Below the pieces are notes generated by a model that worked only from the letters and a program-made list of their open reading frames with translations, was not told the origin of the DNA and did no database searches. This document shows, piece by piece, positions 39,197 to 55,374 of a stretch of DNA of 55,375 nt. This stretch comes from an uncultured bacterium (lineage in GTDB: Bacteria > Krumholzibacteriota > Krumholzibacteriia > Krumholzibacteriales > Krumholzibacteriaceae). The DNA lies in assembly GCA_964584495.1 (NCBI GenBank), contig CAZPAH010000004.1:1-55375 (forward strand). The letters are read 5' to 3'. Made by a program: the position numbers and the translations under genes. Each line of letters starts with the position of its first letter. Position 1 is the stretch's first letter.

Positions 39197-39913
39197 TCAG
39201 ATGAATTTTTCCCTTTTCTGGAGGTTGAGAAGACCGTAGAGAAGGGCGATGACCGTTCCGACGGCGAGATATATCCTGTTCGTCATCACCGTCTTGGCGA
39301 ACACGGCCTCGTTTTCCGGCGTTATGAACGGATTGATGAAGAGGTCCCACTTGCTGTTCTCGACGAAATCGCTCAGGAACATCAGCCCGACGCCGATGAT
39401 CACCATCACGACTGCCGTCCCGGTGCCGTCGCGTATAAGTGTCGAGAGGAGAAAGCAGATGCTTCCCAAAAAGAAGATCGGGAACATCAGGTGGTAGACC
39501 ACCTTGAATACCGGCACGGAGACCAGGATCACAGAGCTGAGAAGCGCCAGGGCCAGAAGTATCACGAAGACGAGCACCCATATGAGAAACATCCTGCCGA
39601 CCCAGACCTTGTACCTGTAGTTCGGGATCCCGAACAGTATCTCGATCATCCTGCTGTCCACGTCGTTCTGTATGCCGAACGCCATCGGGTAGAAGACAAG
39701 CAGTATCCCGGGCAGCACCAGGATGCCGAAGACCTGGGCCACCGACGGATCGGAATCCGAGCTGAAGAAGAATATCAGCGTGATCAGCAGGTAGAAGATG
39801 AACGCCGCGATCAGAAAGTAGATGAACTTGTTCGCGAAGATGATCTTCAGGTTGTACCTGGAATAGGTTGCCGTCAGATCTACGAGATTTTTTATCCTAT
39901 TGACGTACCTCAT
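39197..39913 (-). CDS. ABC-2-type (type V) permease-like membrane protein
   Basis: About 6 TMs; 'D.DSRMIEILFGIP.YR.KVW' recalls the ABC-2 coupling region; overlaps the end of the RND-ATPase gene. Confidence 0.65.
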   Translation of the reverse strand: MRYVNRIKNLVDLTATYSRYNLKIIFANKFIYFLIAAFIFYLLITLIFFFSSDSDPSVAQVFGILVLPGILLVFYPMAFGIQNDVDSRMIEILFGIPNYRYKVWVGRMFLIWVLVFVILLALALLSSVILVSVPVFKVVYHLMFPIFFLGSICFLLSTLIRDGTGTAVVMVIIGVGLMFLSDFVENSKWDLFINPFITPENEAVFAKTVMTNRIYLAVGTVIALLYGLLNLQKREKFI

Positions 39914-42900
39914 GGTCCTTCTTTCTCAGCATCCACAGGTAGGCATCCTCCAGCGTCGGATTTATCTCCGCCGCGTCGGCGGCGGGGCGCTCCCGGGAAA
40001 GGCACCTTACCCTGATCTTCTCGCCGTCACGCATATGGTGAACGACCAGCATCGTCTTTCTGACCGTCTCGAGATCCTTGGGCTCGATGTTGAACTGCCA
40101 TACATGGCCTCTCGCCGTCTCGGTCATCTTGGCCGGATCGTCGCAGTAGAGCAGCCTCCCCCGGTCGAGAATCGCCACCCGGTTGCAGGAGCTGTAGATA
40201 TCCTCGATGATATGCGTGGAAAAGATCACGACCCTCTCCCTGCTCAGCTCGACGAGGAGGTTCCTGAACCTTATCCTCTCGCGCGGATCGAGGCCGGCGG
40301 TCGGTTCGTCCACGACCAGTATCCTCGGCAGGTGAAGGAGTATCTGCGCGATACCGACCCTCTGCTTCATTCCCCCCGAGAAAGAGCCTATGGTCTTGTC
40401 CCTGTGCTCCTCGATATGGACCGCCTCGAGAACGTAATTGACCATCTTCTCGCGGCGAGGCCTATCGGTCAGCCCTTTCAGTATGCCCTGGTAGTTGAGG
40501 AACTCCCATGCGGTCATGTTCTCGTATGTGCCGAATTCCTGCGGCAGGTAGCCGATGAGTCCCTGGAGCTCCTCCCTTTTCTCGTTCACGTCGATGCCGT
40601 TGATCTGGATCTTCCCGTAGCTCTGGTCGAAGATGCCGCAGATGATGCGCATGAGGGTCGTCTTGCCGGCCCCGTTGGGACCCAGCAGGCCGAACATCCC
40701 TTTCCCGATCTGGAGCGTCACGCCGTCGAGGGCCTTGAACGGGACCTTTTTCCGTCCGATCATCGGGATCATCATGACGAATCTGTAGAAAGCCTTTCTC
40801 AGGCCGGAGAATCTGCCCGAAATCCTCGCTATATTCACCTTGTCGCGGTGGATACGGTTGGAGGTCGTGTAGATCACCAGCGCCGTGTACCAGAGGGCGG
40901 CGATAAGGATCACGAGGGCCGTGTCATGCCACCTGAGATAGAAGAACAGCAGGTTTGCCAGGGGCAGTCCCCAGAAGAGGACCGGCCGCACCCGCCCGGC
41001 CCATCTCCCCGGCGACAGTCTGCCACCGCCTGAGAATCGGAACTCGAGGAACTCCCTGACCGGGTTCCAGAGAAAGAGGATATAGAAGAAGACGGCGTGG
41101 GAGAGGACGAATGTCCAGAAGAAGCTGTTCAGGTATAAATATACGAAATAGACGGCGAACGCCAGCAGGGGGACCTGCCAGGCGAATCCTCCGAAATCCG
41201 AGAGGGCGCGGTACGCATGCCCCGATCCGTCCCTGTGCCTCTTGGCGTTTCCCTTGTTCCACTCGCGCGCGAACCTCGAGGGATGATCGAATATCTTGAC
41301 GAGGTTTCGTATCTCGATCGTTATCGGGGCACCCTCTGGGATTATGCTCGAGGCCGCCTGGCGGAGGCTCGACATCACGAACCATGTAGCCCCCGGAATG
41401 GAGAAGAGGAGCGCGGAGAGGAAGGCGAGCTTCCAGATATTGCTGTCTACGCGGGTGAAGATGAGGTAGCAGCCGGCGGTGAAGAGGATCATGTGGGCGA
41501 TCTTGATCCTTATGTCGAGCCGGCGCATCCAGGAAAGGGCCGCCTCCAGCCCCGAGTAGACGACCGGTATGAATATCAGCGTGAAGAGGGTGCTCAGGGA
41601 GAGACCGCCGATAACGGTGATCGCGAACGGGGCTCCCATGATCGAGACATCCTCGGTCTTTCCCATCGCGAGCGGTATCATCGCGATTATCGTCGTCGCC
41701 GCCGTGATGAGGATCGGCCTCGTCCTGGCTCTCCCCGCCGCCAGCAGCGCCCTGGCGACCCTGTGACCGCGCCGCCTCAGTATCATCGAGTAGTCTATCA
41801 GGATGATCCCGTTGTTCACCACCACGCCGAGCAGTATGACAAACCCGGTCAGCGTATAGAGGTTGATGATCGAGGTCCGGGTGAATATCAGCATCCAGAA
41901 CGATCCGATCGCCGCGAGCGGGACTGTGAACATCATCACCACCGGCGTCGTCAGCGATTCGAAGACCGAAGCGAGGATCATGTAGATCAGTATGAAGGCG
42001 GCTACGATGAGAAAGGTGTACTCTCCGTACTCGTTCTCTTCGTGCACCACCTCCACAGCGACGCCCGAGGGGATCACAAGGGCCGCCACGAGCTGATCGA
42101 CCTCGGCCCTGGCCGATTCGAGAAGATCCTTCGAGCTGTTCACCTCGTCGGAGAACCGGTAGGTGACCTCGATCTGCTTCTCCTGGTTGACCCGGTTTAT
42201 CGAGGGCAGGCCGTGCGAGTATATTATCCTCGAAAGCCGCTGGAGCTCGATCGATCCTGTGTTTCCCCCCTGTATCGACAGCCTTTGAAGATCCTCGATC
42301 CTGCGCTGCTCCTGGTTCATCTTCCTGATCACGATATCGTACTCGTCTGTCCCCTGCCTGTAGGTGAGGTTCGTCGAGAACTCGTTGGGAAACGTTCTGA
42401 GCTCCGATCCTATCGCCGAAAGCGGGATGTCGTAGTAGCTCATGAGGTCGGTGTCGAAATGCAGGTGAATCTCGGGGCGGTCATCGGAGACGTTCATGGA
42501 AGCCGACGATACCGAGCTCAGGTTTTCCAGGTGATACTTGATATCGTCGCCGAAATCCCTCATCACCTCGAAGTTGCTGCCTATGATCACGACCTTCTCC
42601 TGCTGGACGCCGATCCCGAACATCCTCATCATCGCCCTCTCCATGCCCATCCCGCCGCTCCTTCCGTACCGGGTGCTGGCCTGCGGCGGATCGAAGCTCA
42701 CGTCGGCGGTCCTGTAGTCCTCGAAGCGTTTCCTCACGTCCTCCTTGATCTCGTTGAACGAACGGTTATCGATCTCCCTGTAATTATCCTTCAGGGTGAT
42801 CGTGATCATCGCCTCGTCCTCGTAGATTCTGCTTAGCATGTCCATCTTCTCGGGGATCGACTCGAACCTCGACTCCAGGTCGGTCACCGTCGCGTCGGTC

Positions 42901-44621
42901 GTCTCGAGGGACGATCCCTTGGGCATCGACACGTATATCGTTATCGATGTCGCCTTGGACTCCTTGCTTACGTTGAGGCTTAGGCCGAGGCAGATTATGA
43001 TGCTGGCGAAGAATACTATGATGGTTCCTATTATCGTCCTTGCCGGGTAGCGGAGGCACGATTTGAGGAGAACCGTGTAGATCTCGATTATCCGGTTGTT
43101 CCCCGAGACCGGCTGGAAGTTGGCCGAATCGCGCGCGCTGCGCCGCTTCAGGAAGAAATGAGTGACCATCGGAACGAGAAGCAGCGCCACGGCGAGGGAG
43201 ACAAGCAGGGTCGATATGATCGACACGCCGACGTGCTTTCCCACGAGCTTGATCTCGAAGCGCGACGAGAAGATGAATGGGAGGAAGACGGTGATCGTCG
43301 TCGCCGTGGCCGCGAAGATCGAACGCCAGACCTCTTTCACCCCCTCTATGACGGCCGTGTCGGGGTCCCTTCCGAGGGAGACGAGACGGTAGATATTCTC
43401 GAGAACGACTACGCTGTTGTCGAGCAGCATCCCCACGGCGAGGGCCATCCCGATCAGGGTGAGGCTGTTTATCGTTATCCCCGCGGCGTAGAAGAAGTTG
43501 AAGGCGGTGAAGACCGAGATGGGGATGGCGAGGGCTATGATCAGGACGAGCCTCAGGTTCCTCAGGAAGACCCATAGGATAACCACCGCGAGGAGCCCCC
43601 CGATCAGCGCGAGCTTGATGATCAGGTCGATGTTCTTCTCCATGATCTCCGAGATGTCGTTCTGGACGATTATCTCGATGTCCCTCGACCTGAACTCCCC
43701 GTTCAGCCGGTCGACCACCTTTCTCGCCCTGTGAGACAGGTCTATCATGTTGACCTGCGATTCCCTGACGAGGGATACCGTCACCGCGTCCTTCCCGTTC
43801 ACCCTGCTTATCGAGGTCTGCTCCTTCACCCCGAAATAGATCTCGGCCACGTCCCTTAAAAGGACCGGCCCCGTGGGATTGACGGTGATATTCTCGATCT
43901 CGCTTATATCGGCGTACTCGGAGACGACGTTCACGAAGTACTGCCTCCCCGACTCGTCGATCTGCCCGGCGAACGTGTTGCTCTCCCCGTTCCTCCTTAT
44001 CAGACCGGCGACGGTGGAGGGGGTTATCCCGTAAGCCTCGCATACGGCGTCGTCGAGGATGATCTCGACCGATTTCTCCCGGCCTCCGGAGATCTCGAGG
44101 TTGGCGACGCCGTCGATGCTCTCGAGCTCCCGCCGGATCTCGTTGTCGACTATGTTTCTCACCCTGTCGAGCCCGCCGCCGCCCCGGACCTGGAGGTCCA
44201 TGAACTTGTTGCTCACCTTCTCGGTGTCGATATTCCGCACCGCTAGGAAATATTCGTCCGGAAGCGTCGGCCTGACGGCGGCGATCTTCTGCTGGAGCTT
44301 GAGGTAGGCGTACTTGATGCTGATGTTCTGGTTGTAGTAGACCGTTATCATGCACCTGCCGGGCGAGGCGAACGATTCGATCCTGTCTATATCCTCGAGG
44401 GTGCCGATCGCGGTTTCCAGCGGGAGCACCGCTTCCCTCTCGACGTGCTCTGGATCGATGTCCTGGCTCGAGACCGCGTAGACGATGAGGAAGGGGAGCT
44501 CGGCGTTGGGCAGCAGCTCCACGGGGAGGTTCCTGTACGAGATGATCCCCAGCATCGTCAGCGCCGTGAAAAGCATGCTGATGAGGGTCTTGCGGCCTAT
44601 GATCGGGTTGCTCGTTTTCAT
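39897..44621 (-). CDS. RND permease (AcrB/MdtBC-like) fused to extra TM helices and a C-terminal ABC ATPase domain
   Basis: RND: 'ELLPN...P', 'GMLLDNSVVVLEN', 'R.RPILIT', 'VIGGL'. NBD: GPNGAGKT, YLPQEF, FSGGM, ILVVDEP, AGLDP, STH. Confidence 0.9.
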   Translation of the reverse strand: MKTSNPIIGRKTLISMLFTALTMLGIISYRNLPVELLPNAELPFLIVYAVSSQDIDPEHVEREAVLPLETAIGTLEDIDRIESFASPGRCMITVYYNQNISIKYAYLKLQQKIAAVRPTLPDEYFLAVRNIDTEKVSNKFMDLQVRGGGGLDRVRNIVDNEIRRELESIDGVANLEISGGREKSVEIILDDAVCEAYGITPSTVAGLIRRNGESNTFAGQIDESGRQYFVNVVSEYADISEIENITVNPTGPVLLRDVAEIYFGVKEQTSISRVNGKDAVTVSLVRESQVNMIDLSHRARKVVDRLNGEFRSRDIEIIVQNDISEIMEKNIDLIIKLALIGGLLAVVILWVFLRNLRLVLIIALAIPISVFTAFNFFYAAGITINSLTLIGMALAVGMLLDNSVVVLENIYRLVSLGRDPDTAVIEGVKEVWRSIFAATATTITVFLPFIFSSRFEIKLVGKHVGVSIISTLLVSLAVALLLVPMVTHFFLKRRSARDSANFQPVSGNNRIIEIYTVLLKSCLRYPARTIIGTIIVFFASIIICLGLSLNVSKESKATSITIYVSMPKGSSLETTDATVTDLESRFESIPEKMDMLSRIYEDEAMITITLKDNYREIDNRSFNEIKEDVRKRFEDYRTADVSFDPPQASTRYGRSGGMGMERAMMRMFGIGVQQEKVVIIGSNFEVMRDFGDDIKYHLENLSSVSSASMNVSDDRPEIHLHFDTDLMSYYDIPLSAIGSELRTFPNEFSTNLTYRQGTDEYDIVIRKMNQEQRRIEDLQRLSIQGGNTGSIELQRLSRIIYSHGLPSINRVNQEKQIEVTYRFSDEVNSSKDLLESARAEVDQLVAALVIPSGVAVEVVHEENEYGEYTFLIVAAFILIYMILASVFESLTTPVVMMFTVPLAAIGSFWMLIFTRTSIINLYTLTGFVILLGVVVNNGIILIDYSMILRRRGHRVARALLAAGRARTRPILITAATTIIAMIPLAMGKTEDVSIMGAPFAITVIGGLSLSTLFTLIFIPVVYSGLEAALSWMRRLDIRIKIAHMILFTAGCYLIFTRVDSNIWKLAFLSALLFSIPGATWFVMSSLRQAASSIIPEGAPITIEIRNLVKIFDHPSRFAREWNKGNAKRHRDGSGHAYRALSDFGGFAWQVPLLAFAVYFVYLYLNSFFWTFVLSHAVFFYILFLWNPVREFLEFRFSGGGRLSPGRWAGRVRPVLFWGLPLANLLFFYLRWHDTALVILIAALWYTALVIYTTSNRIHRDKVNIARISGRFSGLRKAFYRFVMMIPMIGRKKVPFKALDGVTLQIGKGMFGLLGPNGAGKTTLMRIICGIFDQSYGKIQINGIDVNEKREELQGLIGYLPQEFGTYENMTAWEFLNYQGILKGLTDRPRREKMVNYVLEAVHIEEHRDKTIGSFSGGMKQRVGIAQILLHLPRILVVDEPTAGLDPRERIRFRNLLVELSRERVVIFSTHIIEDIYSSCNRVAILDRGRLLYCDDPAKMTETARGHVWQFNIEPKDLETVRKTMLVVHHMRDGEKIRVRCLSRERPAADAAEINPTLEDAYLWMLRKKDHEVRQ

Positions 44622-47600
44622 CTGGCCCGGTCCAGGACGGAGAAGACGCAGGGGATCACGAAAAGGGTAAGCGTCGTCGAGGTGATCAGTCCTCCGATGA
44701 CGGCCAGGGCCATGGGCGCCCTCAGGGCCGCCCCCTCACCGAAGCCGAAGGTGAGGGGAAGAAGGGCGAGTATCGTGGTGGCGCTCGTCATGATGATCGG
44801 GCGTATCCTTCTCTGCCCGGCCTCGATGATCGCGTTCCTGCGCTCCAATCCTTCCTTCTTGAGTTTGTTTATGGCGTCGACGAGAATGATCGAATCGTTG
44901 ACGGCGATCCCGACGAGCATGACCATCCCGATGAGGGCCATTATATTGAAGGTCTTTCCAAGGATGAAAAATATCAGCACCGCGCCGACGCCGGCCATGG
45001 GGATGGTGAGTATGATCGCGAAGGGGTGCACCAGCGATTCGAACTGCGACGCCAGCACCATGTAGACCAGTATTATGGAAAGGATCAGCGCGAAGCGCAG
45101 GTCCTTGAACTCGGCCTGCCTCTTCTCCTCCTCGCCGGTGATGACGAGCCTGTAGCCCGCGGGGACGTCGACCGCCCTGAGCCTGTTCTTGATATCGGCT
45201 ATCAGGTGATCGAACGGCCTCCCCTTCCTCTGATGCGCCGTCACTATCCCGGTCCGGACCTGATTCCTCCTGTTGATTTGCTTCGGCGCGTTGCCGTACC
45301 GGACGGCGGCCACCTGGCTCAGCCGGACCATGCTCCCGTTTCCTTCCAGGAGTATATCCTCGATGCCGGAGAGGGACGTCTTGGGCACCTCGATGATGAT
45401 CTCTTTCTTCTCTCCCTCGTGCTCCCAGTACCCCGCCTCCTTCCCCTGAAGGATATCCTTGAGTTGAGAGCTGATATCGTTCACGCCTATGTCGTACATG
45501 CCGGCCCTCAGGCGGTCGATGACGATATCGACCTCGGGCCGTCCCTCCTCCAGCGTCGTCTCGACGTTGAACAGGTCGCCGATCTCGAGCAGCTTCGCCT
45601 TCACGCCGGCCGTGATCTCCTCGAGCGTCCCAAGGTCCTCGCCCATCACCTCGACCACGACAGGCGCCGATTCGGTTCCCAGGGTGGTCATCAGGGCCGT
45701 CTGGTCCTGTATGAACTGCTCCTCGACGTCGGGGATCTCGCCGATCGCACCTCCGAGCCCCTGGATCACGAGCTCCGATGATATTTGGCGGCCTCCGCCC
45801 AGCCGTATCTTGATCGCCGCCGTGTTCTCGTCCTCGAACACCTCCCCCTCGTAATCGCTCATCGATGTGGCGGGACCGATCCTGCTGTATATCGATTCAA
45901 CGTCCTTGCCGAGGAGTTCGTGGATTATATCCTCGATCCCGACGACCGTGTTCTCCGTCCTGTTCAGCTCCGTCCCCTCGGGAAGCGTGATCTGGACCGT
46001 GAACTCGTTCATGTCGGTCTTGGGTATGAACTCGCTCCCGACTACCGGAACGAGAAGCACCGCGATCGCTATGAGCGCGGCCGCCCCCAGGATGACCGTC
46101 CAGCGCCTCCCCAGCACATTGCCCAGGAGGGATCCGTACCAGCCGAACTTGATCGAACGCGTCTTCGCCGACGGAGGCCTCCTTTTTAGGAAGCGGCTGG
46201 CGAGCATCGGGATGACCAGTATCGCGACTACGAGGGAGGACAGCAGAGAGAAGGCCACCGTCCAGGCCTGGTCCTTGAACAGCTCTCCCGAGGCGCCGTG
46301 AAGGTAGACGATGGGGAGGAAGACGATGATAGTCGTTATCGTCGAGGCCGTGATCGCCCCGCCGACCTGGGATGCGCCCTCTATCGCCGCTTCCTTGATC
46401 GGCGTGCCGGCCTCGATATTGCGGATGATATTCTCCATGACGACGATCGCGTTATCGACCAGCATCCCGGCCCCCAGGGCGAGTCCCCCCAGCGTCATTA
46501 TGTTTAGCGTGAGCCCGTTGAAATACATCAGGTTGAAGGTGGCCACGACGGAGATCGGTATGGCGACGCTCACGATCGCCGTCGTCCCGATCCTCCTGAG
46601 AAACACGTAGAGCACCAGTATCGCCAGCAGGATCCCTATGAGGGCCGTCTGCTTGACCTCGTCGACCGCGGCGGTGATGAACCTTCCCTGGTCCTGTATC
46701 ACGGTCAGCTCGTAGCCGGGGAGGGCGTCGCCCAGCTTCTTCAATTCCTCGTGGAGGCGGTTCGACGCCTGCACCGTGTTGAACTTCATCTCCTTGTAGA
46801 TGCTGAGGCTGAGGCAGCGTTCGCCGTTGAGCCTCACTATGCTTTTCGGCTCCTTGTTCCTGTACTCGATCTTCGAGACGTCCTTGAGGAATACCGGCAC
46901 CTTCTCCTGCGTTTCGCCGTCGGCCGCCTGCTGGGGCTGCCCGGCCCCTTCGCCCTCCCGCCAAGTGATGATGATGTTCTCTATGTCCTCGAGCGTCTCG
47001 AGCTCGCCGACCCCCTTGACGAGGTATTCCAGACCCATCTCGGTAATCGAGCCCCCGGAGACGTTCTGATTGTAGCTCTCGATCCTCGCGGCGAGGGCGT
47101 CGAGGGTGAGGCCGTACGCCTCTAGGAGGTAGTTGTCGGTCTCGATGACGACCTCTTTCTCCTCCTGGCCCGAGATCTCGACCCCCGCTATCCCCTCGAT
47201 CCTTGTGAGCTCGTTGCGTATGTAGTTCTCGGCCACCTTTCTCAGCTCGTCCATGTCGTTGATCTCGGGGTTCGACAGGCCGACGAGCATGATCGGCTCG
47301 GCGTTGGGGTCGTGCTGGGTGATAGTGATCTCGTCGATATCGGGATTGTTCTGCCCGATATCGGCGGCGCCCTTCTGAAGGTCGAGAAACGCCTCGTCCA
47401 TGTCGGTGTTCCATTTATACTCGACGGTCGTGCGGGCCGCGCCCACGCGGATCGTCGTGTAGACGCCGATCACGCCCTTCTTCGTCGATGCCATCGGCTC
47501 GATCAGCCCGATGAACTGCTTCTCGATCTCCTCGGGGGGCAGCTCGCCGGCGGTGAGCTCGATGAAGATCCGCGGGTTGTTGAGATCGGGAAAGAGATCA

Positions 47601-47704
47601 ATCCCGAGCCTCGTGAAGGAGAGGTAGCCCAGAAGAAGAACCGAGCAGACGAACATCAGCACGGTCACGGGATGCCGGACCGAAAAGCTTGAAATATTTC
47701 TCAT
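44618..47704 (-). CDS. RND efflux permease subunit
   Basis: 'DLFPD', 'GMLVDNAIVVMEN', 'QFESLVHP', 'RIRPIIMT', 'VIGGL'; ATG 47704 overlaps the MFP stop (GTG 47707 is an alternative). Confidence 0.95.
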   Translation of the reverse strand: MRNISSFSVRHPVTVLMFVCSVLLLGYLSFTRLGIDLFPDLNNPRIFIELTAGELPPEEIEKQFIGLIEPMASTKKGVIGVYTTIRVGAARTTVEYKWNTDMDEAFLDLQKGAADIGQNNPDIDEITITQHDPNAEPIMLVGLSNPEINDMDELRKVAENYIRNELTRIEGIAGVEISGQEEKEVVIETDNYLLEAYGLTLDALAARIESYNQNVSGGSITEMGLEYLVKGVGELETLEDIENIIITWREGEGAGQPQQAADGETQEKVPVFLKDVSKIEYRNKEPKSIVRLNGERCLSLSIYKEMKFNTVQASNRLHEELKKLGDALPGYELTVIQDQGRFITAAVDEVKQTALIGILLAILVLYVFLRRIGTTAIVSVAIPISVVATFNLMYFNGLTLNIMTLGGLALGAGMLVDNAIVVMENIIRNIEAGTPIKEAAIEGASQVGGAITASTITTIIVFLPIVYLHGASGELFKDQAWTVAFSLLSSLVVAILVIPMLASRFLKRRPPSAKTRSIKFGWYGSLLGNVLGRRWTVILGAAALIAIAVLLVPVVGSEFIPKTDMNEFTVQITLPEGTELNRTENTVVGIEDIIHELLGKDVESIYSRIGPATSMSDYEGEVFEDENTAAIKIRLGGGRQISSELVIQGLGGAIGEIPDVEEQFIQDQTALMTTLGTESAPVVVEVMGEDLGTLEEITAGVKAKLLEIGDLFNVETTLEEGRPEVDIVIDRLRAGMYDIGVNDISSQLKDILQGKEAGYWEHEGEKKEIIIEVPKTSLSGIEDILLEGNGSMVRLSQVAAVRYGNAPKQINRRNQVRTGIVTAHQRKGRPFDHLIADIKNRLRAVDVPAGYRLVITGEEEKRQAEFKDLRFALILSIILVYMVLASQFESLVHPFAIILTIPMAGVGAVLIFFILGKTFNIMALIGMVMLVGIAVNDSIILVDAINKLKKEGLERRNAIIEAGQRRIRPIIMTSATTILALLPLTFGFGEGAALRAPMALAVIGGLITSTTLTLFVIPCVFSVLDRAR

Positions 47705-48753
47705 CACCTGATCACTTTCACCTTCGAGCGGTTGCGCAGCGTCTCGAACCCCTTCACGACGAGACGCTCGTCCATCTTGAGCCCCTCGAGGACCTCTATG
47801 TTGTCCGGGTTTTCCAGGCCGGTCGTGATAGTCCTCTCCTGCGCGGCGCCCTTCTCGACGACGAAGACGGTCTTGCCCCTCTGCTTGACCAGGACGACGT
47901 CCTTCGGTATCACTATCGTGCTGTCGTGCCTCGCGATGATTATCTCGGCCTTGGCGAACATCCCCGGTCTCATGACGAGATCGGGATTATCGACTTGGAT
48001 CGAGGCCTTGAACGAGCGCGATTCGGAATCGAGGGCGGGGGAGACCTGCGTCACCCTGCCCGAAAGCGTGTCGTCCGGTATCGAGTAGTTCATCACCCTT
48101 GCATCCTGCCCCGTCTTTATCACGCCGAGGTCCTTGCCGGGCAGGTTGACCTCGAGGTAGAGGGACCTGTAGCTCATGATCTGCACCATCGTGTTTCCCA
48201 ACTCGACCATCGTCCCGGCGGTGTAATAGGGGAGATCGGTGATCACCCCGTCGAAGGGCGCCTTGATGCTCATCTTCGAGAGGTTGATCAGGGCGTTGTC
48301 GTAATCGTACCGGGCGTCCATGAACAAGCGCTCCGAATCCTTGAGCTCCTTCAGGGTGACGCCCCCCTTCTTGTAGAGGGACTGCTGCTTCTCGTACTCG
48401 AGCTTGGCCGTGTCGAGGTTGAGCTTCTTCGAATCTATCCTTATCGTGTTCTCCTGCTCCTCGCTCTCCAGCCTGATGATAACCTGTCCCTTCGTGACGG
48501 CGTCGCCGAGGGAGAAGGGCTTCCCGGTCGCCGGATTGGTATTGAGCACGTAGTCGCCGGCGACCTCCGACTTGATCGTCGTCTCGCTCATCGAGTTGAC
48601 CGTGCCGGTCGCGACGATGTACTCCTCTATCGAGCCCGGCTTGATCTCCTCGACCGAGACGGGGACCGAGACCTCCGTCTCCAGGTCTGTCCCTCCGCCG
48701 CCGCAGGAAGCGATCAGAAATGTCAACGAAACGATAAGCAGGCATTTTTTCAC
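47704..48753 (-). CDS. RND periplasmic adaptor (MFP), lipoprotein
   Basis: GTG start; lipobox LIASC; 'IKAPFDGVI', 'RPGMFAK', 'IPKDVV', 'GL...ERLVV.G'. Confidence 0.9.
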   Translation of the reverse strand: MKKCLLIVSLTFLIASCGGGGTDLETEVSVPVSVEEIKPGSIEEYIVATGTVNSMSETTIKSEVAGDYVLNTNPATGKPFSLGDAVTKGQVIIRLESEEQENTIRIDSKKLNLDTAKLEYEKQQSLYKKGGVTLKELKDSERLFMDARYDYDNALINLSKMSIKAPFDGVITDLPYYTAGTMVELGNTMVQIMSYRSLYLEVNLPGKDLGVIKTGQDARVMNYSIPDDTLSGRVTQVSPALDSESRSFKASIQVDNPDLVMRPGMFAKAEIIIARHDSTIVIPKDVVLVKQRGKTVFVVEKGAAQERTITTGLENPDNIEVLEGLKMDERLVVKGFETLRNRSKVKVIR

Positions 48754-48787
48754 GTCGGATTCCTCTCTTCCTGTTTCCCGAAGGACC

Positions 48788-50248
48788 CTATTCAAGAACG
48801 GAACGGTTGTTTTCGAAATCCCAGAGGGACTGTATCTTCATATCCAGCAGGCCGAGCCTGTATTGTATCAGGGAGGAGACCTCGTTGAGCTTCTTCTGGG
48901 AAAGCTGGACCTGGAACTGGTTGAGCTCCATGCTCGAGAGGTCTCCGTTGCGGTACTTCTCGAGGTTGATATCGTACGTGAGCTGTGAATTCCTCACGTT
49001 CTGCTTGGCGATCTCTATCTGCGTGACCTGGTTCTCCAGGTTCCTGTATGCGCTTCTTATCGATATCAGGATATCGTCCTTCTCCTCCTCCAGCGAGAGC
49101 TCCTGGGATTTCAGCGAGGCGCGGGCCGCCTCGAGGAGCGATTTCTTCTCGCCCCAGTCCCACAGCGGCACCTCGAGCGTCAGCGAGAACTGCTGGTTCT
49201 TGTCGGGGGAGTCGTAGATGCTCGAGAACCTTTCATCGGTTCCCGACGTGCCGTAGGCGAGGTTGATGTTTCCCCAGAACTCGTTCGTCGCCCCGGTGGT
49301 TATCACGTTGTTGCGGGCGTTCTCGATCTGTATCTCCTGCTGCCTTATCTCCATCCTGTTTTTCAGGCCGTGCGAGATAGCCTGCTGGAGGTCTACCTCC
49401 ACGTAGTTGAACGAGATATCGGCCGTGATATCGATCTCCTCGTCGAGGGGGATGCCGAGAAGCTTCTTGAACCGGTCGAGCGCCGATTCGAGGGTAACCT
49501 TCTGGTTCTGCAGGGACGACTGCGCGCTGGAGAGGTTCAGCTCGGCCTGGTAGAGCTCGTCCAGGCTCTCCAGGCCAGCGTCGGCCTTGTTCTTGCTGAT
49601 ATCGTAGCCCACCTTCGTGTTCTCGTACTCGTCGTTGGCGACCTGGACCTGCATCTTCGCTTCGTAGACGTTGTAGAACTGCTGCATAACGAGCTGCTCT
49701 ATCGACAGCTTCTGAATCGCGTAGTTCAGCTGGTTGTTCTCGAGATCGAGCTCGAGGTTCTCCAGCTCCATCTTCCTCTTGTTGTAGGTGAATATCGGCT
49801 GGTTGAAGCTGATGTAGAGGTTGTTCATGTACGTCTTGCTCGACTGGTCCTGGAACTCGCTGTACGAGTCCCGGTAGGAGAAGTTGTTGATCAGCGAAAG
49901 GGTCCCGTCGGTCCAGGTGATCGGCTGGCTGACCGTGAACTCGCCGCCCGACTCTTTCGTCTCCTGCGTGTACCAGGTGGAGAAGAGGTCGTTGAAGACC
50001 GTGCTGTTGCTGTACGATATCGGCGTGAGGGAGAGGCTGAATTTCGACTTCAGCCTGGCCTTCGCCGCGTTGAGCGATGCCTGGCTCCGTTCCAGGCTCA
50101 ACCTGCTGTGCCTGATGTTTGGGCTCTTGTCCATCGCTATCCGGAGGGATTCCTCGAGGGTGAGCACGCGCTGCGCCGAGGCGCCGTCCGCCTGGAGCAG
50201 CACGGCCGCCAATGCGAGCAAGACGGTGTTTCTTCTCCCGATCTTCAT
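48788..50248 (-). CDS. TolC family outer membrane channel
   Basis: Signal peptide; 'LTLEESL.IA', two helical/beta repeats, 'LEVPLWDWG', 'KYRNG..S..EL'. Confidence 0.9.
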   Translation of the reverse strand: MKIGRRNTVLLALAAVLLQADGASAQRVLTLEESLRIAMDKSPNIRHSRLSLERSQASLNAAKARLKSKFSLSLTPISYSNSTVFNDLFSTWYTQETKESGGEFTVSQPITWTDGTLSLINNFSYRDSYSEFQDQSSKTYMNNLYISFNQPIFTYNKRKMELENLELDLENNQLNYAIQKLSIEQLVMQQFYNVYEAKMQVQVANDEYENTKVGYDISKNKADAGLESLDELYQAELNLSSAQSSLQNQKVTLESALDRFKKLLGIPLDEEIDITADISFNYVEVDLQQAISHGLKNRMEIRQQEIQIENARNNVITTGATNEFWGNINLAYGTSGTDERFSSIYDSPDKNQQFSLTLEVPLWDWGEKKSLLEAARASLKSQELSLEEEKDDILISIRSAYRNLENQVTQIEIAKQNVRNSQLTYDINLEKYRNGDLSSMELNQFQVQLSQKKLNEVSSLIQYRLGLLDMKIQSLWDFENNRSVLE

Positions 50249-50285
50249 TTTTCCTGCGAAACCCGAATCCATAGCAGTTTCCTTC

Positions 50286-53200
50286 CTAGCGTTTCACCCA
50301 TTTTATGGCGTCGGCCACAACGTAGCGGGCCTTCGACTTGTTGTTGATCTCGACCTTCGCCGTGCCCTTCGATATGTAAAAGGAGCCGATGAAGTTCCAT
50401 CCATCCTCGGCGGTGTTCAGGTCGAGCACGGTCTCCTCGATCCCGTCGTCGTGATGGATGAAGAGCGTGTTCGAGCCGAGATCGGAATCGCGATCCCTCC
50501 TGCCGCGGAAGGGGGACCGGACCTTGCCCACGTGAAAATATATGTCGTAGTTGCCGCTCTCCGCCAGCTCCGCGGTCCAGGCGGCTTTTCTTTTTCCGTC
50601 CCCGTGGCTCGTGAAATGGGCCGAGCGGATGTACCTGCCGTAGAATTTCGAATCGGTCGTCGCCAGCCAGGTCCCGGTGCTGGTCCAGCCCACGTACCTA
50701 TCGTTGATGTCGGGCTTCGGGACGAGGCTCGGAATCATCCTCTTCAGCAGGCTCTTGGGCGACCCCTTGGCGAACGTGAATCCGGGATCCTCGTCGTCCG
50801 TGACGGTCTCTCCCGGCTCGATAAGCCTGACCGGCGCGTCCAGCACGCGCTCCCCGTCGAACGGCACGGCCCTCTTCTCCAGCTCGAACTCCTCGAAGGT
50901 TCTCGATATGTTGGAGGGGATGTTCATCGAGACCAGCGTGTTTATCTCCACCGAGCCGGGCTGGTAATCGAGAACGGCCCCTATCTCCTTCGTCTCGCCG
51001 GCCGCGAAGTACACGAGCCGCTCGAGGTTGTCCTCCTCGCGGGGGCCGCCGAAAGGTCCTCTGAAGCGCCCGCCCCGCATCCCCCTCTGGCGGGTGAAGG
51101 TGAGCTTCACCAGCCCGTCGACATCCTCCGGGTTGGATATCTTGAAGCGGACCTGGTAGCGTTCCCTGTCCTTGTCCAGGACCTTGTAGTTGCGGTATTC
51201 CCCGTCGAGGAAGCCGGGCAGCTTCCTGTCGGAGTACCAGCTCTCTATATACGGGGCGAAATCGAATCCGAAATCCTTCTCGAGGCCCGAAACGAAAGCC
51301 TCGCCGGTGGTCGCGCGGAACATGGTCTCCTTCAGCCAATTCTCCATGAACGATCCGAAGCGCTCCGGACCGACCCTGTTCTCGAGCAGGCGGAAGAGGA
51401 AATCGCCCTTCATCTTGAGGACGAAATTGGCCATGTTGCGTTTCTCGGGGTCGGAGAGGATCTCGCTGAGGTTCTCCTGCGTAAGGGCGAGGTTGCCCCT
51501 TTCCTCGGGCGTCATTCCCGTGAAGTAACGCCTGAAGACCGAGGGGGGATTATCCAGCCGGCCCGCCCAGAACGATTCGAGCGCCATGTTCAGGACCGGC
51601 CATCTCTCCGATTCGATGTGGTGTATGAAGGTGTAGAAGTTGGGGAATACGTTGTAGCTCGTCGTGAACGCGAACGGGTCCTCCTCGCGGAACGACGTTC
51701 TGCCGAAGTCCTGCGTGAGGGTCGAGCCGATGAAGTCGTTCAGCATGTTGCACTCATTCTCCAGTGGCGAGATCTCCTCGTTCGTGCGGTCGGTGCGCCT
51801 CTTCATCCTCTTCTGCATGATTCTGAAATCCACCCCGCCCAGCGATGCCCCCATCTCGGGGAGCAGCACGATCTCCGGCTGCACCGATTCCTGCCCGACG
51901 GACCAGAGGTGCCTGTAGCTGAAGAAATTGATCGGTACCTCGACAAGCGTCAGCCTGGTGTAGGGGTAGGTGAGGCCGAGGGTGTTCTCGTAGTCCTGGA
52001 GCGCCTCCCCGATGAGGGGGGAGAGGGTGTCGCCGATCTCGCTGAAGTACCCGGAGAAGAAATCGTGGCCCTTCTTGTAGTATATGGCGTACTCGACCGA
52101 GTCGACCGGTATCGAGATCCGCTCGTAATCGGCCGCGGCAAGGCTGAGGGAGGGCAGGGGCATCTCATGCTCGAAGACGAACCTGCCGCCGCCCCCGCTC
52201 GTTATCTTTCCCTGCGAGACGGCGGTCAGGCCGGCCGGCAGCGTCACATCGAGGGTGAACCTGGTGAAATGCTGGGCGTGGATCTCGGGGCGCTCCGAGC
52301 TGAAGCCGGCCCCGGCGACGGGGTACCAGTCGGATTCCGGCGTGAGCAGCAGGAAATCGGGCTGGATGAACGCGTAACGCTTCTTCACCTTCGGTATGTT
52401 CGCCCTCGGCATCGAGAAAGGCTTTTCCCTCGTCTCCTCGTCTATGTCGGGATAGCAGGCCTCCTCGTCGATCCTGCCGTGGTAGGCGACGTCGAACGAA
52501 TCGACCGCACCGGGGGCGAGTGGAACCGACGGCTCGATGACGAGCAGGTGGATATCCCGCCTGTAGGGGACGGGTCCGCCCGCCCCGCTTACGCCGTCGA
52601 CGGCCAGGCCCGGGTTGAGGGTGAATATGTAGCGGGCCGCGGGAGAGGAGGAGTCGTTCATGACACGGTACCTGGCCGTGGCGGCTATCGTCCTGCCCCT
52701 GTGCTCTATAGAGATGTCGCAGGTGAGGGGGGTTATGCGCTCCCCGCCCACGACCTGGTTGTTGGCCTCTATGATCCTCGCGCGTAGCGACCTTCCGCCG
52801 AGGATGTCGCCGATGTACCTGTATCCCAGTAGGAGCGCGGCGGCGAGGAAGACGACCGACAGGACCTTCGCCGACGAGGTGATCCCCCTCGACTGCGGAA
52901 GGCGTTTTATCATCACCACCGTCATGCATATGAATGAGAGGCCGAGCAGGAGGTATATCCCCCTGTGCTCGAGCAGGGACGGAAGATCGCCGAACCCGCA
53001 GAAGGTCGAGCGCTCGAGCGGGAGGGTGAAGGCCATGTAGTCGAAGAGGGAGTGAAACTTCCTCGCCAGGTAGAAGAGGGTCGTCCCTATGTAGCCGAGA
53101 AGGACGATGAAGGTTACGGCCTGGTTGCGTATAAGGACCATGAAGAGGAAGGAGAGGCCGAGTATGAATACCAGCGTCGAGAGGCTTATCACCAGCGGGT

Positions 53201-53645: not shown

Positions 53646-54527
53646 TCAACTCACCTCGCGGTGTTCCATGAAGTAGACGTAGGCGTGCTCCAGGTTCGGC
53701 TCTATCTCCTCGGCGGGGTAGCCGTCGAGCTTGTCGCCGACGACGTGGACATCCCAGCCGTTCTCGGAGGGTATCGTCGATATCACCGAGTACTTCGACT
53801 TGATATCCTCCAGCTCGCTGTCGAGCGCGACGATCTTCCAGGCGTGCCCGCGCGCCTTGTCGAGCAGTCCGTCGGGAGAGCCCCGGAAGATGAGCCGCCC
53901 CTTGTCCAGAAGCGCCATGTTGTGGCAGGTGCTCGATATATCGCCGACGATGTGCGTCGATAGGAGGATTATAACGTCCCGCTGTCCGAGGTCGGCCAGG
54001 AGGTTCCTGAACCTTATCCTCTCCTCGGGATCGAGCCCCGTCGTCGGCTCGTCGACCACTATTATCTTCGGATCGCCTATGAGCGCCTGGGCGATGCCGA
54101 GCCTCCTCTTCATGCCGCCGGAGAGCTTGTTCGCCATCCTGTCCCTCACGTCGAAGAGCCCGACCTGCTCGAGCATCGCGTCGACGGCCCTGGTCCTCTC
54201 CTTCGGGTTCTTCAGTCCCGCCAGCGATGCCACGTAATCGAGAAACTCCCAGGTCTTAAGCTTCGAGAAGAACCTGAACTCCTGGGGGAGGTACCCGAGC
54301 ATCGATCTTATCTCCCGGCGGTTTTTTCGAAGGTCGAGATCGCCGATCTTCACCGTCCCCGAAGAGGGCTCCATCAGCGTGACGAGAATCCTCATCAGGG
54401 TCGTCTTTCCGGCACCGTTGGGGCCGAGAAGGCCGAACATCCCGCTGCCGATCACGAGATCCAGGTCCTCGAGGGCGCGGTTACCGTTCTTGTAGACCAT
54501 GCTCAGCTTTTCGATCTTAATTTCCAT
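53646..54527 (-). CDS. ABC transporter ATP-binding protein (ABC-2/DrrA-like)
   Basis: GPNGAGKT, YLPQEF, LSGGM, IIVVDEP, TGLDP, STH; stop abuts the next start. Confidence 0.96.
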   Translation of the reverse strand: MEIKIEKLSMVYKNGNRALEDLDLVIGSGMFGLLGPNGAGKTTLMRILVTLMEPSSGTVKIGDLDLRKNRREIRSMLGYLPQEFRFFSKLKTWEFLDYVASLAGLKNPKERTRAVDAMLEQVGLFDVRDRMANKLSGGMKRRLGIAQALIGDPKIIVVDEPTTGLDPEERIRFRNLLADLGQRDVIILLSTHIVGDISSTCHNMALLDKGRLIFRGSPDGLLDKARGHAWKIVALDSELEDIKSKYSVISTIPSENGWDVHVVGDKLDGYPAEEIEPNLEHAYVYFMEHREVS

Positions 54528-54630: not shown

Positions 54631-55374
54631 TCACGGTCCGAATCTCAGGAATATATCGAGCGCCCTCATCGCCCTGTCGATCTTGCGGAATACCGGTATC
54701 CCCGCCTCCTCCATCATCCTTACCGCGGGGTCGTAGATCGCCCCCTCGTTCAGGCAGACGACCATCGGCTTGGCGGTGGCGCGAAACAGCCTGATCAGCG
54801 TCTTCGGGTGCGAGTCGTCGTGATTGATATCCTCCCGGTGGCCCGGCCCGGCGGCGAGGTTTTCCTGCGCGGCCGTGGCGGCGACGTTGGAGACGACGAC
54901 GCAGTCGGTGTTCTCGTCCTCGAGGAGCGCCTCGATGCATTTTCCATACTTCGCAGTAGTTATGGCCGGCGTGGCGTCGACCGGGTTATGAACGTCTATG
55001 AAGCCGGTCGGCAGGTACTCGCCGAGCTTCTTCATCGTGCCGGGGGAAAGCTGCGCGAGCTCCATCGAGAGGAGCCTGTCGGCTGCGATCGAGCACTCGA
55101 ACCCGGCGTCGCTCGAGACCGCCACGCGGTTGCCCCCCGCCTTCCGCTGCCACAGGAGGGTCAGGACCTTCACCGCATCCTCGAAATCCTCCATCGAATC
55201 GGCGACGTATATCCCCGTATCGCTCATGAGGGTGCGCAGGACGTCGTAATCGCCCGCCATGGCGGCGGTGTGCGAGGCGACGGCGGCGGCGCCCTCGGCC
55301 GTTCTGCCCGTCTTGTAGAGGAGGATCCTTTTCCCGGCGCCGAGCGCTTCGTTCGCCGCGGCGAGGAACCGTTC
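54631..55374 (-). CDS. acetate/acyl-CoA ligase (ADP-forming) family protein, 5'-truncated by the window edge
   Basis: Frame is open to the window end: 'LYKTGRT..GA.A.ASHTAAMAGDY', 'S.AG...I.AD', 'HNPVDAT'. Confidence 0.8.
   Translation of the reverse strand, partial: ERFLAAANEALGAGKRILLYKTGRTAEGAAAVASHTAAMAGDYDVLRTLMSDTGIYVADSMEDFEDAVKVLTLLWQRKAGGNRVAVSSDAGFECSIAADRLLSMELAQLSPGTMKKLGEYLPTGFIDVHNPVDATPAITTAKYGKCIEALLEDENTDCVVVSNVAATAAQENLAAGPGHREDINHDDSHPKTLIRLFRATAKPMVVCLNEGAIYDPAVRMMEEAGIPVFRKIDRAMRALDIFLRFGP

What the first reader, a model, noticed from the sequence alone, without database searches (positions are those of the whole stretch)
40735..41324. The fused ATPase appears to be split by an inserted transmembrane bundle
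The stand-alone ATPase starts 'MEIKIEKLSMVYKNGNRALEDLDLVIGSGMFGLLG'. In the fusion, the equivalent first strand 'ITIEIRNLVKIFD' (about 41324-41286) is separated from 'FKALDGVTLQIGKGMFGLLG' by roughly 180 residues. These contain about 4 hydrophobic helices (AWQVPLLAFAVYFVYLYL, FFWTFVLSHAVFFYILFLW, VLFWGLPLANLLFFYL, TALVILIAALWYTALVIY). Inference: a membrane anchor was inserted into the beta1-beta2 loop of the NBD and holds it at the membrane in a fixed geometry. I have not seen this topology in described NBDs.
Basis: inference. Interest (0 to 1): 0.8.

Follow-up and report, generated by a model that had tools for sequence, protein, structure and literature searches.

The report
ABC ATPase split by membrane helices
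A 1574-residue protein fuses an AcrB-type efflux pump to an ABC ATPase whose first beta-strand is separated from the rest of the ATPase by four membrane helices; this layout is conserved in many uncultured bacteria, and I found no description of it in the literature or solved structures I could search.

Summary
ORF 39897-44621 (- strand, 1574 aa) contains, in order:
- a full RND/AcrB domain (aa 7-1023)
- two extra TM helices
- the strand 'ITIEIRNLVKIF' (aa 1100-1111)
- a 182-residue insert with four charge-free hydrophobic helices
- the rest of a catalytically complete ABC-2-type NBD (aa 1295-1574)

The displaced strand is the most conserved piece of the linker. In 98 homologues I1102 and K1109 are invariant and position 1111, the A-loop position, is aromatic in all 98. 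The strand persists in relatives with about 30% identity in the insert, including a Pseudomonadales MAG.

AlphaFold2 (pLDDT 85) predicts it as a 10-residue beta-ladder strand. Every other strand in the model lies in the NBD or its C-terminal domain. Nothing between the last TM helix and beta2 is predicted as a strand.

A natural split version (RND | beta1-4TM-NBD | permease) keeps beta1 with the ATPase. A conserved 238-aa ABC-2-like permease follows the fusion.

No solved structure or searchable paper shows this topology. The nearest analogue is the soluble 32-residue regulatory insertion of CFTR NBD1, at the same loop.

The function of the insert (docking or coupling to the RND pump) is inferred, not shown.

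The parts
39897..44621 (-). Whole fusion ORF, 1574 aa: RND + 2 TM + beta1 + 4-TM insert + NBD + C-terminal domain
   Evidence: ORF list. Pfam ACR_tran aa 7-1023 (E 2e-167) and ABC_tran aa 1299-1442 (E 2e-28). Full-length relatives are 1550-1585 aa.
41553..44621 (-). RND (AcrB/MdtB-like) permease domain, aa 1-1023
   Evidence: Pfam and NCBIfam matches. Best PDB match for TM7-12 is MdtB 9lyq. TM4 reads 'LLDNSVVVLEN' and TM10 reads 'VVNNGIILIDY', so AcrB D408 and K940 are both replaced by Asn.
41370..41513 (-). Two extra TM helices (TM13 and TM14, aa ~1037-1084) after the RND domain
   Evidence: Hydropathy. AF2 helices at model residues 14-34 and 38-67. They stay with the RND gene in the split homologue L001.
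41286..41324 (-). Displaced NBD strand beta1 with the A-loop aromatic residue (ITIEIRNLVKIFD, aa 1100-1112)
   Evidence: In 98 homologues: I1102 98/98, K1109 98/98, Y/F1111 98/98, L1107 92/98, V1108 93/98. DSSP strand at model residues 79-88, block pLDDT 86-88. Splicing it onto beta2 extends ABC profile matches to profile position 2.
41232..41276 (-). Conserved amphipathic helix 'RFxREWxxG' following beta1 (aa 1116-1130)
   Evidence: R1119 96/98, E1120 94/98, W1121 94/98, G1124 92/98. AF2 helix at model residues 93-107.
40869..41183 (-). Four-helix membrane insert: two helical hairpins, aa 1147-1164, 1167-1185, 1214-1229 and 1234-1251
   Evidence: Hydropathy. Charge-free helices with 2- and 4-residue turns and K/R-rich loops. 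AF2 helices at model residues 126-140, 144-174, 182-208 and 211-236. The only matches among 1.84 billion representatives are 84 clusters; every hit over 1500 aa (14) carries the insert at about aa 1097-1300, and most other hits are fragments.
40740..40868 (-). Basic linker with an amphipathic helix that returns from TM helix d to beta2 (aa 1252-1294)
   Evidence: 11 K/R against 1 D/E. AF2 helix at model residues 249-261 and no strand.
39900..40739 (-). Remainder of the NBD (beta2 onward) plus the C-terminal domain, aa 1295-1574
   Evidence: Walker A, Q-loop, signature SGGMKQR, Walker B DEP, D-loop and H-switch are invariant in 98 sequences. PDB sequence matches ABCA3/ABCA1, TM_1403 (4yer) and NosF. 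Foldseek best hit 4yer, E 2e-18. NCBIfam GldA and DrrA types.
39197..39913 (-). 238-aa six-TM membrane protein, probably the ABC-2 (type V) permease partner; overlaps the fusion ORF by 17 nt
   Evidence: Conserved downstream of the fusion in L001, L003, L004, L005 and L011. More than 5000 homologues, none with a functional name among the best 120 listed. AF2 pLDDT 84, pTM 0.82. Best Foldseek hits are PmtCD, NosY and ABCG2 TMDs, TM-score 0.54-0.60, E 4e-3. ABC2_membrane_3 matches below the Pfam threshold in 9 of 51 members, best E 9e-5.
44618..47707 (-). Partner RND permease (1029 aa); its stop overlaps the fusion's start codon (ATGA)
   Evidence: Pfam ACR_tran E 1e-215. 28.6% identical to the fused RND. 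A plain RND lies immediately upstream of the fusion in L003 and L004 (both fragmented), L005 and L011.
47704..50272 (-). Membrane-fusion protein (47704-48795) and outer-membrane factor (48788-50272) of the tripartite pump
   Evidence: Pfam HlyD_D23 and OEP. Same gene order in L004 and L005.
53646..54527 (-). Stand-alone paralogous ABC ATPase with a contiguous beta1-beta2, used as the comparator
   Evidence: 43% identity to the fused NBD from beta2 onward. GldA profile matches from position 1.

Best explanation
This is a real, conserved protein architecture. An active ABC-2/type V-class nucleotide-binding domain has its N-terminal strand beta1, which carries the adenine-stacking A-loop aromatic residue, separated from beta2 by an insert of about 180 residues. 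The insert is made of an amphipathic helix, two transmembrane helical hairpins and a basic return linker. The split NBD is fused to the cytoplasmic C-terminus of a 14-TM AcrB-like RND permease.

Inferred: beta1 folds back into the NBD sheet, so the NBD is stitched to the membrane through both ends of its beta1-beta2 loop.

More weakly inferred: the 4-TM module is a docking element. It places the NBD beside its own 6-TM ABC-2 permease (the next gene) and beside the RND trimer. An ATP-driven exporter or flippase would then feed substrate from the cytoplasm or inner leaflet to an RND/MFP/OMF pump that expels it. Two fused subunits in a heterotrimer with the plain RND paralogue would supply the two NBDs that an ABC dimer needs.
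For: Shown:
- One uninterrupted ORF carries ACR_tran plus ABC_tran.
- The architecture and the insertion point are conserved in more than 120 close homologues and in 14 full-length representatives of 1550-1585 aa, and in a Pseudomonadales MAG at 33% identity.
- The beta1 motif h-x-I-x-h-x-x-L-V-K-h-Y/F has I, K and the aromatic in 98/98 sequences.
- All catalytic NBD motifs are invariant.
- AF2 (pLDDT 85, pTM 0.70) predicts aa 1102-1111 as a DSSP ladder strand. All other strands are in the NBD or its C-terminal domain, and no strand lies between TM helix d and beta2.
- Native ABC profile matches begin at profile position 15-16. After an in-silico splice of beta1 onto beta2 they begin at position 2 and gain 4.5 bits (GldA) and 4.3 bits (galliderm). 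A shuffled beta1 gains 0.3-0.4 bits and the matches still begin at profile position 14-16.
- The insert helices are charge-free, and the K/R-rich loops lie on the NBD side.
- A natural gene fission in L001 cuts just before beta1 and keeps beta1-4TM-NBD as one 483-aa protein.
- A downstream permease is present at all six fusion loci examined, and the window's 238-aa permease models with an ABC-2-like fold.
- OMF-MFP-RND-RND::ABC-permease synteny, with overlapping stop and start codons.
Against:
- Mutual information on 122 sequences was inconclusive. Only one of the top pairs, 1103-1304, fits the expected antiparallel register.
- The gain from the splice test is only a few bits.
- The permease's assignment to ABC-2 rests on Foldseek E 4e-3 and on Pfam hits below threshold.
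- Nothing here tests stoichiometry, substrate or coupling to the RND.
- An RND trimer and an ABC dimer do not match in symmetry unless the heterotrimer idea is right.
Confidence: 0.72

Rival explanations
1. The upstream 'beta1' is a vestigial fragment, a remnant of a duplicated or truncated NBD or a coincidental strand-like motif. On this reading the functional NBD starts after the TM helices and completes its sheet with its own local sequence, so the TM helices are an N-terminal membrane domain and not an insertion.
For: PDB and profile alignments of the native sequence start a few residues upstream of beta2; for example 4yer aligns from aa 1284. F1295, just before beta2, is invariant and could be imagined as a substitute aromatic residue.
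Against: - A vestige would not keep I, K and the aromatic in 98/98 sequences, nor persist at about 30% overall identity.
- AF2 gives a helix and coil, not a strand, for aa 1252-1294, and a confident ladder strand for aa 1102-1111.
- The native upstream segment does not align to beta1 profile positions, whereas the spliced beta1 does.
- The natural fission keeps beta1 with the ATPase and leaves only a degraded partial copy on the RND gene.
Confidence: 0.08
2. The split topology is real, but the ABC module is not a separate exporter that feeds the RND. It would instead be the energy source or a regulator of the RND pump itself. ATP-driven NBD movements would be passed through the 4-TM insert and TM13/14 to an RND whose proton relay is degenerate, by mechanotransmission of the MacB kind.
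For: The fused RND family lacks two of the canonical relay residues: AcrB D408 and K940 are both Asn, in 14/14 representatives for TM4 and 11/11 scored for TM10. The NBD is wired to the membrane at two points next to the RND C-terminus.
Against: - A dedicated ABC-2-like permease gene follows the fusion at all six loci examined, which argues for a complete ABC exporter.
- The plain partner RND also has a non-canonical relay, so the substitutions may simply be a lineage trait.
- The split form shows that covalent linkage to the RND is dispensable.
Confidence: 0.15
3. The fusion or the insert is an artefact: a frameshift, a chimeric assembly or a mis-called ORF that joins separate RND, membrane and ATPase genes.
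For: Some long-read MAG contigs show the gene broken into several ORFs (L003, L004). The exact window protein is not on record in the contig collection.
Against: - The window has a single 4725-nt ORF.
- Independent assemblies from NCBI, ENA, JGI and Logan give colinear homologues of 1550-1612 aa.
- Fragmentation is confined to error-prone long-read contigs.
Confidence: 0.02

Closest known systems
CFTR NBD1 regulatory insertion (residues 404-435)
   Same: [quoted passage not shown] It shows that this loop tolerates insertions without destroying the fold.
   Different: The CFTR insert is about 32 residues, soluble, mobile and a PKA phosphorylation target. The insert here is about 182 residues and forms four membrane-spanning helices plus two amphipathic helices.
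ABC-2 / type V exporter ATPases (DrrA, GldA, NosF, TM_1403/4yer, ABCA NBDs) with 6-TM ABC-2 permeases (NosY, PmtCD, ABCG TMDs)
   Same: These are the best sequence and fold matches of the NBD and its C-terminal domain. The downstream 238-aa protein models with a type V TMD-like fold. The stand-alone paralogue in the same window is 43% identical.
   Different: In all of them beta1 and beta2 are contiguous and the NBD is soluble or joined end-to-end to a TMD. None has TM helices inside the NBD and none is fused to an RND permease.
MdtBC / MuxBC-type heterotrimeric RND pumps (AcrB superfamily)
   Same: Two adjacent RND paralogues sit downstream of MFP and OMF genes. MdtB is the best solved match of TM7-12, and NCBIfam gives MdtB/MdtC hits below threshold.
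   Different: One paralogue carries two extra TM helices and the split ABC ATPase. AcrB D408 and K940 equivalents are Asn. Heterotrimer formation is not tested here.
MacB-type tripartite ABC exporters
   Same: An ABC ATPase works within an MFP/OMF tripartite envelope pump, and four TM helices are associated with the NBD.
   Different: In MacB the NBD is intact and N-terminal, and a large periplasmic domain lies between TM1 and TM2. Here the periplasmic turns are 2 and 4 residues, the helices lie inside the NBD sequence, and the periplasmic machinery is supplied by an RND domain.
Rad50/SMC and UvrA (ABC-fold ATPases with large insertions)
   Same: They are precedents for an ABC ATPase fold assembled from sequence-distant segments (general knowledge, not tested here).
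   Different: Their insertions are soluble coiled coils or DNA-binding domains, and they sit between Walker A and the signature motif or inside the helical subdomain. They are not membrane helices in the beta1-beta2 loop.

Membership tests
ABC ATPase (nucleotide-binding domain) superfamily | Walker A, Q-loop, ABC signature, Walker B with catalytic Glu, D-loop and H-switch | tested here: met
   GPNGAGKT (aa 1314-1321), Q1361, SGGMKQR (1415-1421), VDEP (1437-1440), GLD and H1470 are invariant in 98 sequences. Pfam ABC_tran E 2e-28.
ABC ATPase (nucleotide-binding domain) superfamily | A-loop aromatic residue at the end of beta1, about 25 residues upstream of Walker A in a contiguous beta1-beta2 hairpin | tested here: inconclusive
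   An aromatic residue is present in 98/98 sequences on a canonical beta1 motif, but it lies 203 residues upstream of Walker A because of the insert. AF2 predicts it as a ladder strand. Its stacking on adenine cannot be tested here.
ABC-2 / type V ABC exporter | NBD of the DrrA/GldA/NosF/ABCA class | tested here: met
   NCBIfam GldA E 2e-52 and DrrA E 2e-51, both below the equivalog cut-offs. PDB sequence matches ABCA3 E 3e-52, 4yer and NosF. Foldseek 4yer E 2e-18.
ABC-2 / type V ABC exporter | Partner permease with six TM helices and the ABC-2 fold | tested here: inconclusive
   The 238-aa downstream protein models with an N-terminal helix plus six long helices (pLDDT 84). All top Foldseek hits are type V TMDs, but with E 4e-3 to 0.1 and TM-score 0.54-0.60. 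Pfam ABC2_membrane_3 matches only below threshold, best E 9e-5, in 9 of 51 members.
RND / HAE-1 (AcrB-like) permease | Full-length ACR_tran domain with 12 TM helices and two large periplasmic loops | tested here: met
   Pfam ACR_tran covers aa 7-1023 against profile positions 5-1018 of 1021, E 2e-167.
RND / HAE-1 (AcrB-like) permease | Proton-relay residues equivalent to AcrB D407, D408, K940 and R971 | tested here: not met
   The D407 and R971 equivalents are kept. D408 is Asn ('LLDNS') and K940 is Asn ('VVNNG'), from the alignment to MdtB and AdeB. The same holds in 14/14 representatives for TM4 and in 11/11 scored for TM10.
MacB-type (type VII) ABC exporter | N-terminal intact NBD, four TM helices and a large periplasmic domain between TM1 and TM2 | tested here: not met
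   The periplasmic turns of the insert are 2 and 4 residues and the NBD is interrupted. The MacB NBD is only a generic fold match.
CFTR-type regulatory insertion | Short, soluble, disordered, phospho-regulated segment between beta1 and beta2 | tested here: not met
   The position is the same, but the insert here is 182 residues with four hydrophobic helices.

The most novel reading that the evidence does not exclude
The family would be a hard-wired two-stage, dually energised efflux machine. An RND heterotrimer with one plain and two fused subunits would carry exactly two membrane-stitched NBDs. With two copies of the 238-aa ABC-2 permease these would form a complete ATP-driven exporter docked on the RND trimer through the intra-NBD 4-TM module. 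ATP hydrolysis would then either deliver substrate to, or mechanically drive, an RND pump that has lost the canonical D408/K940 proton relay.
Probability: 0.3. Interest if true: 0.88.

Novelty: new variant of a known kind. Interest (0 to 1): 0.72.

Why it matters
ABC NBDs are treated as compact soluble cassettes that meet the membrane only through the coupling helices of a separate TMD. A conserved family in which membrane helices are threaded through the beta1-beta2 loop would be a new solution for attaching and orienting an NBD. That loop lies immediately after the A-loop residue that contacts ATP. It would give a natural test case for how far the antiparallel beta-subdomain can be split.

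The host protein also joins in one polypeptide the two main classes of bacterial efflux energisation: RND (proton-motive force) and ABC (ATP). That makes the long-discussed cooperation between inner-membrane exporters and periplasm-capturing RND pumps directly testable by structure and reconstitution.

The family is abundant in uncultured Bacteroidales, Krumholzibacteria, Zixibacteria, Latescibacteria and some Proteobacteria. Databases currently name it only as 'RND permease, partial' or 'ABC ATPase subunit'.

Tried and rejected
- Mutual information with APC correction on 122 non-redundant sequences, meant to detect beta1-beta2 contacts, was dominated by phylogenetic signal at position 1106. 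Only the pair 1103-1304 fits the expected register, so the result is inconclusive.
- The search for related loci with an insert-only alignment failed because no stretch was conserved enough.
- The same tool with the full alignment used generic Walker A and signature patterns. It returned mostly insert-free paralogues and only three true family loci: L005, L006 and L011.
- The look-up of the exact window protein found nothing on record.
- Model coordinates are not exposed, so strand pairing could not be measured.
- Foldseek cannot bridge the 180-residue insert, so its NBD matches say nothing about beta1.
- Pfam and NCBIfam give no above-threshold family for the 238-aa protein.
- Seven full-text literature searches for RND-ABC fusions or TM insertions in NBDs found nothing relevant. 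Most subscription journals and TCDB are not covered.
- I considered and rejected the idea that helices 2+4 form the transporter's own 6-TM TMD. The split form leaves the two helices on the RND gene, and a separate 6-TM permease is present at all six fusion loci examined.
Full report
**Observation.** The window carries one uninterrupted 4725-nt ORF on the minus strand (39897-44621, 1574 aa). Pfam places a full-length AcrB/ACR_tran domain at aa 7-1023 (E 2e-167) and an ABC_tran domain at aa 1299-1442 (E 2e-28).

- 'ITIEIRNLVKIFD' is aa 1100-1112 (nt 41324-41286).
- 'FKALDGVTLQIGKGMFGLLG' starts at aa 1295 (nt 40739), 182 residues later.
- The four hydrophobic stretches are aa 1147-1164, 1167-1185, 1214-1229 and 1234-1251.
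- Two further hydrophobic helices (about aa 1037-1057 and 1064-1084) lie between the RND domain and the strand.

The stand-alone ATPase used as comparator is ORF 53646-54527. BLASTP aligns it to the fused NBD at 43% identity, starting exactly at its R17 = K1296, which is beta2. Its own beta1 (aa 1-16) has no counterpart immediately upstream in the fusion.

**Not an artefact and not chance.** A search with aa 1035-1574 returned more than 120 proteins at E < 1e-184. They are 52-68% identical and cover about 99% of the query. Many carry PF00873 + PF00005, and they come from Bacteroidales, Krumholzibacteria, Zixibacteria and Latescibacteria MAGs.

A search of 1.84 billion cluster representatives with the insert alone (aa 1095-1296) found only 84 clusters. 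All 14 full-length hits are 1550-1585 aa with the insert at about aa 1097-1300. Most of the other hits are fragments, and no full-length hit shows a different architecture, so the insert looks like a family-specific module.

A Pseudomonadales MAG (L011) has the same cassette, with a 1612-aa fusion at 33% identity. Its strand reads 'KLEVRYLTKSYG', followed by hydrophobic helices and then '...GMVGVLGPNGAGKST'.

**Is the upstream strand the NBD's beta1?**

- *Conservation.* In 98 aligned homologues I1102 and K1109 are invariant. Position 1111 is aromatic in 98/98 (Y96, F2). L1107 is kept in 92/98 and V1108 in 93/98. This is the canonical 'h-x-h-x-x-L-x-K-x-Y' beta1/A-loop signature. Representatives that share only 27-32% identity in the insert keep it.
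- *Catalytic motifs.* All are invariant, so the domain is under selection as an ATPase and needs an A-loop.
- *Structure prediction.* AlphaFold2 on aa 1024-1574 with the 98-sequence alignment gave pLDDT 85 and pTM 0.70. DSSP assigns aa 1102-1111 (model residues 79-88) as a 10-residue strand with block pLDDT 86-88. DSSP 'E' requires ladder partners, and every other strand of the model lies in the NBD or its C-terminal domain, beginning with the 11-residue beta2 at model residues 272-282. The segment between the last TM helix and beta2 is helix plus coil. I could not read coordinates, so the pairing is inferred rather than measured.
- *In-silico splice.* With the native upstream sequence, ABC profile matches start at profile position 14-16. 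When aa 1097-1112 are joined to aa 1290-1574, the GldA, galliderm and PQQ-ABC profiles match colinearly from position 2-3. The gains are 4.5, 4.3 and 1.7 bits. A shuffled beta1 gains 0.1-0.4 bits and the matches still begin at profile position 14-16.
- *Natural gene fission.* In L001/L002 the RND (1101 aa, still carrying TM13/14) and a 483-aa beta1-4TM-NBD protein (P0008) are separate genes. The junction carries a tandem duplication of about 45 nt: the RND ends '...AEYINSDESLRINI*' and the next gene starts 'MMGTEYIKSDEPLRIKVQNVVKIYD'. The intact beta1 therefore stays with the ATPase.
- *Mutual information.* The analysis on 122 sequences was too noisy to add anything.

**Is the insert membrane-spanning?** Across the family each of the four helices averages 0.1 K/R and 0.1 D/E, with mean hydropathy 1.4-2.4. 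The helices are joined pairwise by turns of 2 and 4 residues. The three loops on the other side carry 9.4, 5.8 and 11.6 K+R, and that is the side bearing beta1 and the NBD.

An even number of helices (2 + 4) after the cytoplasmic C-terminus of a 12-TM RND keeps beta1 and the NBD cytoplasmic. The AcrB topology used here is established knowledge. AF2 models the four segments as long helices, at model residues 126-140 (preceded by 117-122), 144-174, 182-208 and 211-236.

**Context.** The minus-strand cluster reads as follows:
- ABC ATPase (53646-54527)
- a 1119-aa protein with six N-terminal hydrophobic segments, a weak M1-peptidase match and Golvesin_C (50286-53645)
- OMF (48788-50272)
- MFP (47704-48795)
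- plain RND (44618-47707)
- RND::ABC (39897-44621)
- a 238-aa membrane protein (39197-39913)

The plain RND's stop overlaps the fusion's start (ATGA), and the fusion overlaps the 238-aa gene by 17 nt. The order OMF-MFP-RND-RND::ABC-small membrane protein recurs in L004 and L005. L011 shows the same order from the MFP genes onward.

The 238-aa protein has more than 5000 homologues; none of the best 120 listed has a functional name or a Pfam domain. Its AF2 model has pLDDT 84 and pTM 0.82. The best PDB matches are type V ABC exporter TMDs: PmtCD, NosY, ABCG2 and CcmB, with TM-score 0.54-0.60, best E 4e-3 and probability about 1. The most frequent Pfam match among 51 members is ABC2_membrane_3, in 9 members with best E 9e-5, below threshold. 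The NBD itself is of the ABC-2 class (GldA, DrrA, NosF, ABCA, TM_1403).

**Mechanism.**

*Shown:* a competent ABC-2-type NBD is encoded in two pieces around a 4-TM module. It is fused, or in one lineage merely adjacent, to a 14-TM RND, and it is followed by a conserved putative ABC-2 permease.

*Inferred:* beta1 re-enters the NBD sheet, so the NBD is pinned to the bilayer at the beta1-beta2 loop. TM14 already tethers beta1 through a linker of about 15 residues, and the split form keeps the insert. I therefore think the insert is a docking or coupling module towards the permease or TM13/14, and not a mere anchor.

*More weakly inferred:* two fused subunits plus one plain RND (MdtB2C-like) would give the NBD dimer. 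The ABC-2 exporter would then hand substrate to the RND/MFP/OMF pump.

*Rival reading:* ATP drives or gates the RND itself. This is prompted by the family-wide loss of the AcrB D408 and K940 equivalents. TM4 reads 'DN' in 14/14 representatives and TM10 reads 'VNN' in 11/11 scored.

**Comparison with what is known.** The nearest positional analogue is CFTR NBD1's regulatory insertion between strands 1 and 2. It is 32 residues, soluble and mobile (PMC2217481). MacB, ABCG and ABCA join intact NBDs end-to-end to TMDs. Rad50/SMC and UvrA split the ABC fold with soluble insertions at other positions (general knowledge).

No PDB chain matched beyond the NBD. Seven literature searches found no description of an RND-ABC fusion or of an intra-NBD TM insertion. 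The library does not cover most subscription journals, or TCDB.

**Verdict.** This is a new variant of known kinds (ABC NBD and RND pump). The function of the insert and of the fusion remains inferred. Interest is 0.72.

Noticed in passing
L001:7940-8060 (ENA ERZ27275847 k141_2674235); same in L002: A natural fission of the fusion gene. A tandem duplication of about 45 nt at the junction creates a stop ('...AEYINSDESLRINI*') and a new start ('MMGTEYIKSDEPLRIKVQNVVKIYD'). The result is RND (1101 aa) | beta1-4TM-NBD (483 aa) | permease (239 aa).
   Followed up: partly
window 43350-43450 (TM4) and 41800-41900 (TM10) of ORF 39897-44621; partner RND 44618-47707: The fused RND lacks two canonical proton-relay residues: AcrB D408 becomes N ('LLDNS') and K940 becomes N ('VVNNG'). 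This holds in 14/14 full-length representatives for TM4 and in 11/11 scored for TM10. The partner RND has 'VDNA' in TM4 and 'VNDS' in TM10.
   Followed up: partly
window 41370-41513: The RND part has two conserved extra C-terminal TM helices, giving 14 TM in all. They remain on the RND gene in the split homologue.
   Followed up: partly
window 50286-54527 (- strand): A second, paralogous ABC system lies upstream in the same cluster. It is a 293-aa ATPase followed by a 1119-aa protein with six N-terminal hydrophobic segments, a weak M1-peptidase-like match and a C-terminal Golvesin_C domain. Golvesin_C ORFs also precede the OMF gene in L004.
   Followed up: partly
window 44618-44621 and 39897-39913: Gene overlaps suggest translational coupling. 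The plain RND's stop and the fusion's start overlap as ATGA, and the fusion's 3' end overlaps the permease start by 17 nt.
   Followed up: yes
L011:5370-10900 (MAG Pseudomonadales ALOHA_A2.5_102): A distant gammaproteobacterial copy of the cassette: two MFP-sized ORFs, a 1035-aa RND, a 1612-aa RND::ABC and a 231-aa permease. This indicates either an old origin or horizontal transfer beyond the FCB group.
   Followed up: partly
L003:494-7132 and L004:4780-12691: In two long-read MAG contigs both RND genes are broken into several ORFs. These are probably indel errors rather than real pseudogenes, and they explain the many 'partial' database entries of 500-930 aa.
   Followed up: no
window 54631-55260 (- strand): The 209-aa ORF at the window edge matches only the C-terminal part of the acetate--CoA ligase (ADP-forming) alpha subunit. 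It is unrelated to the pump cluster.
   Followed up: no
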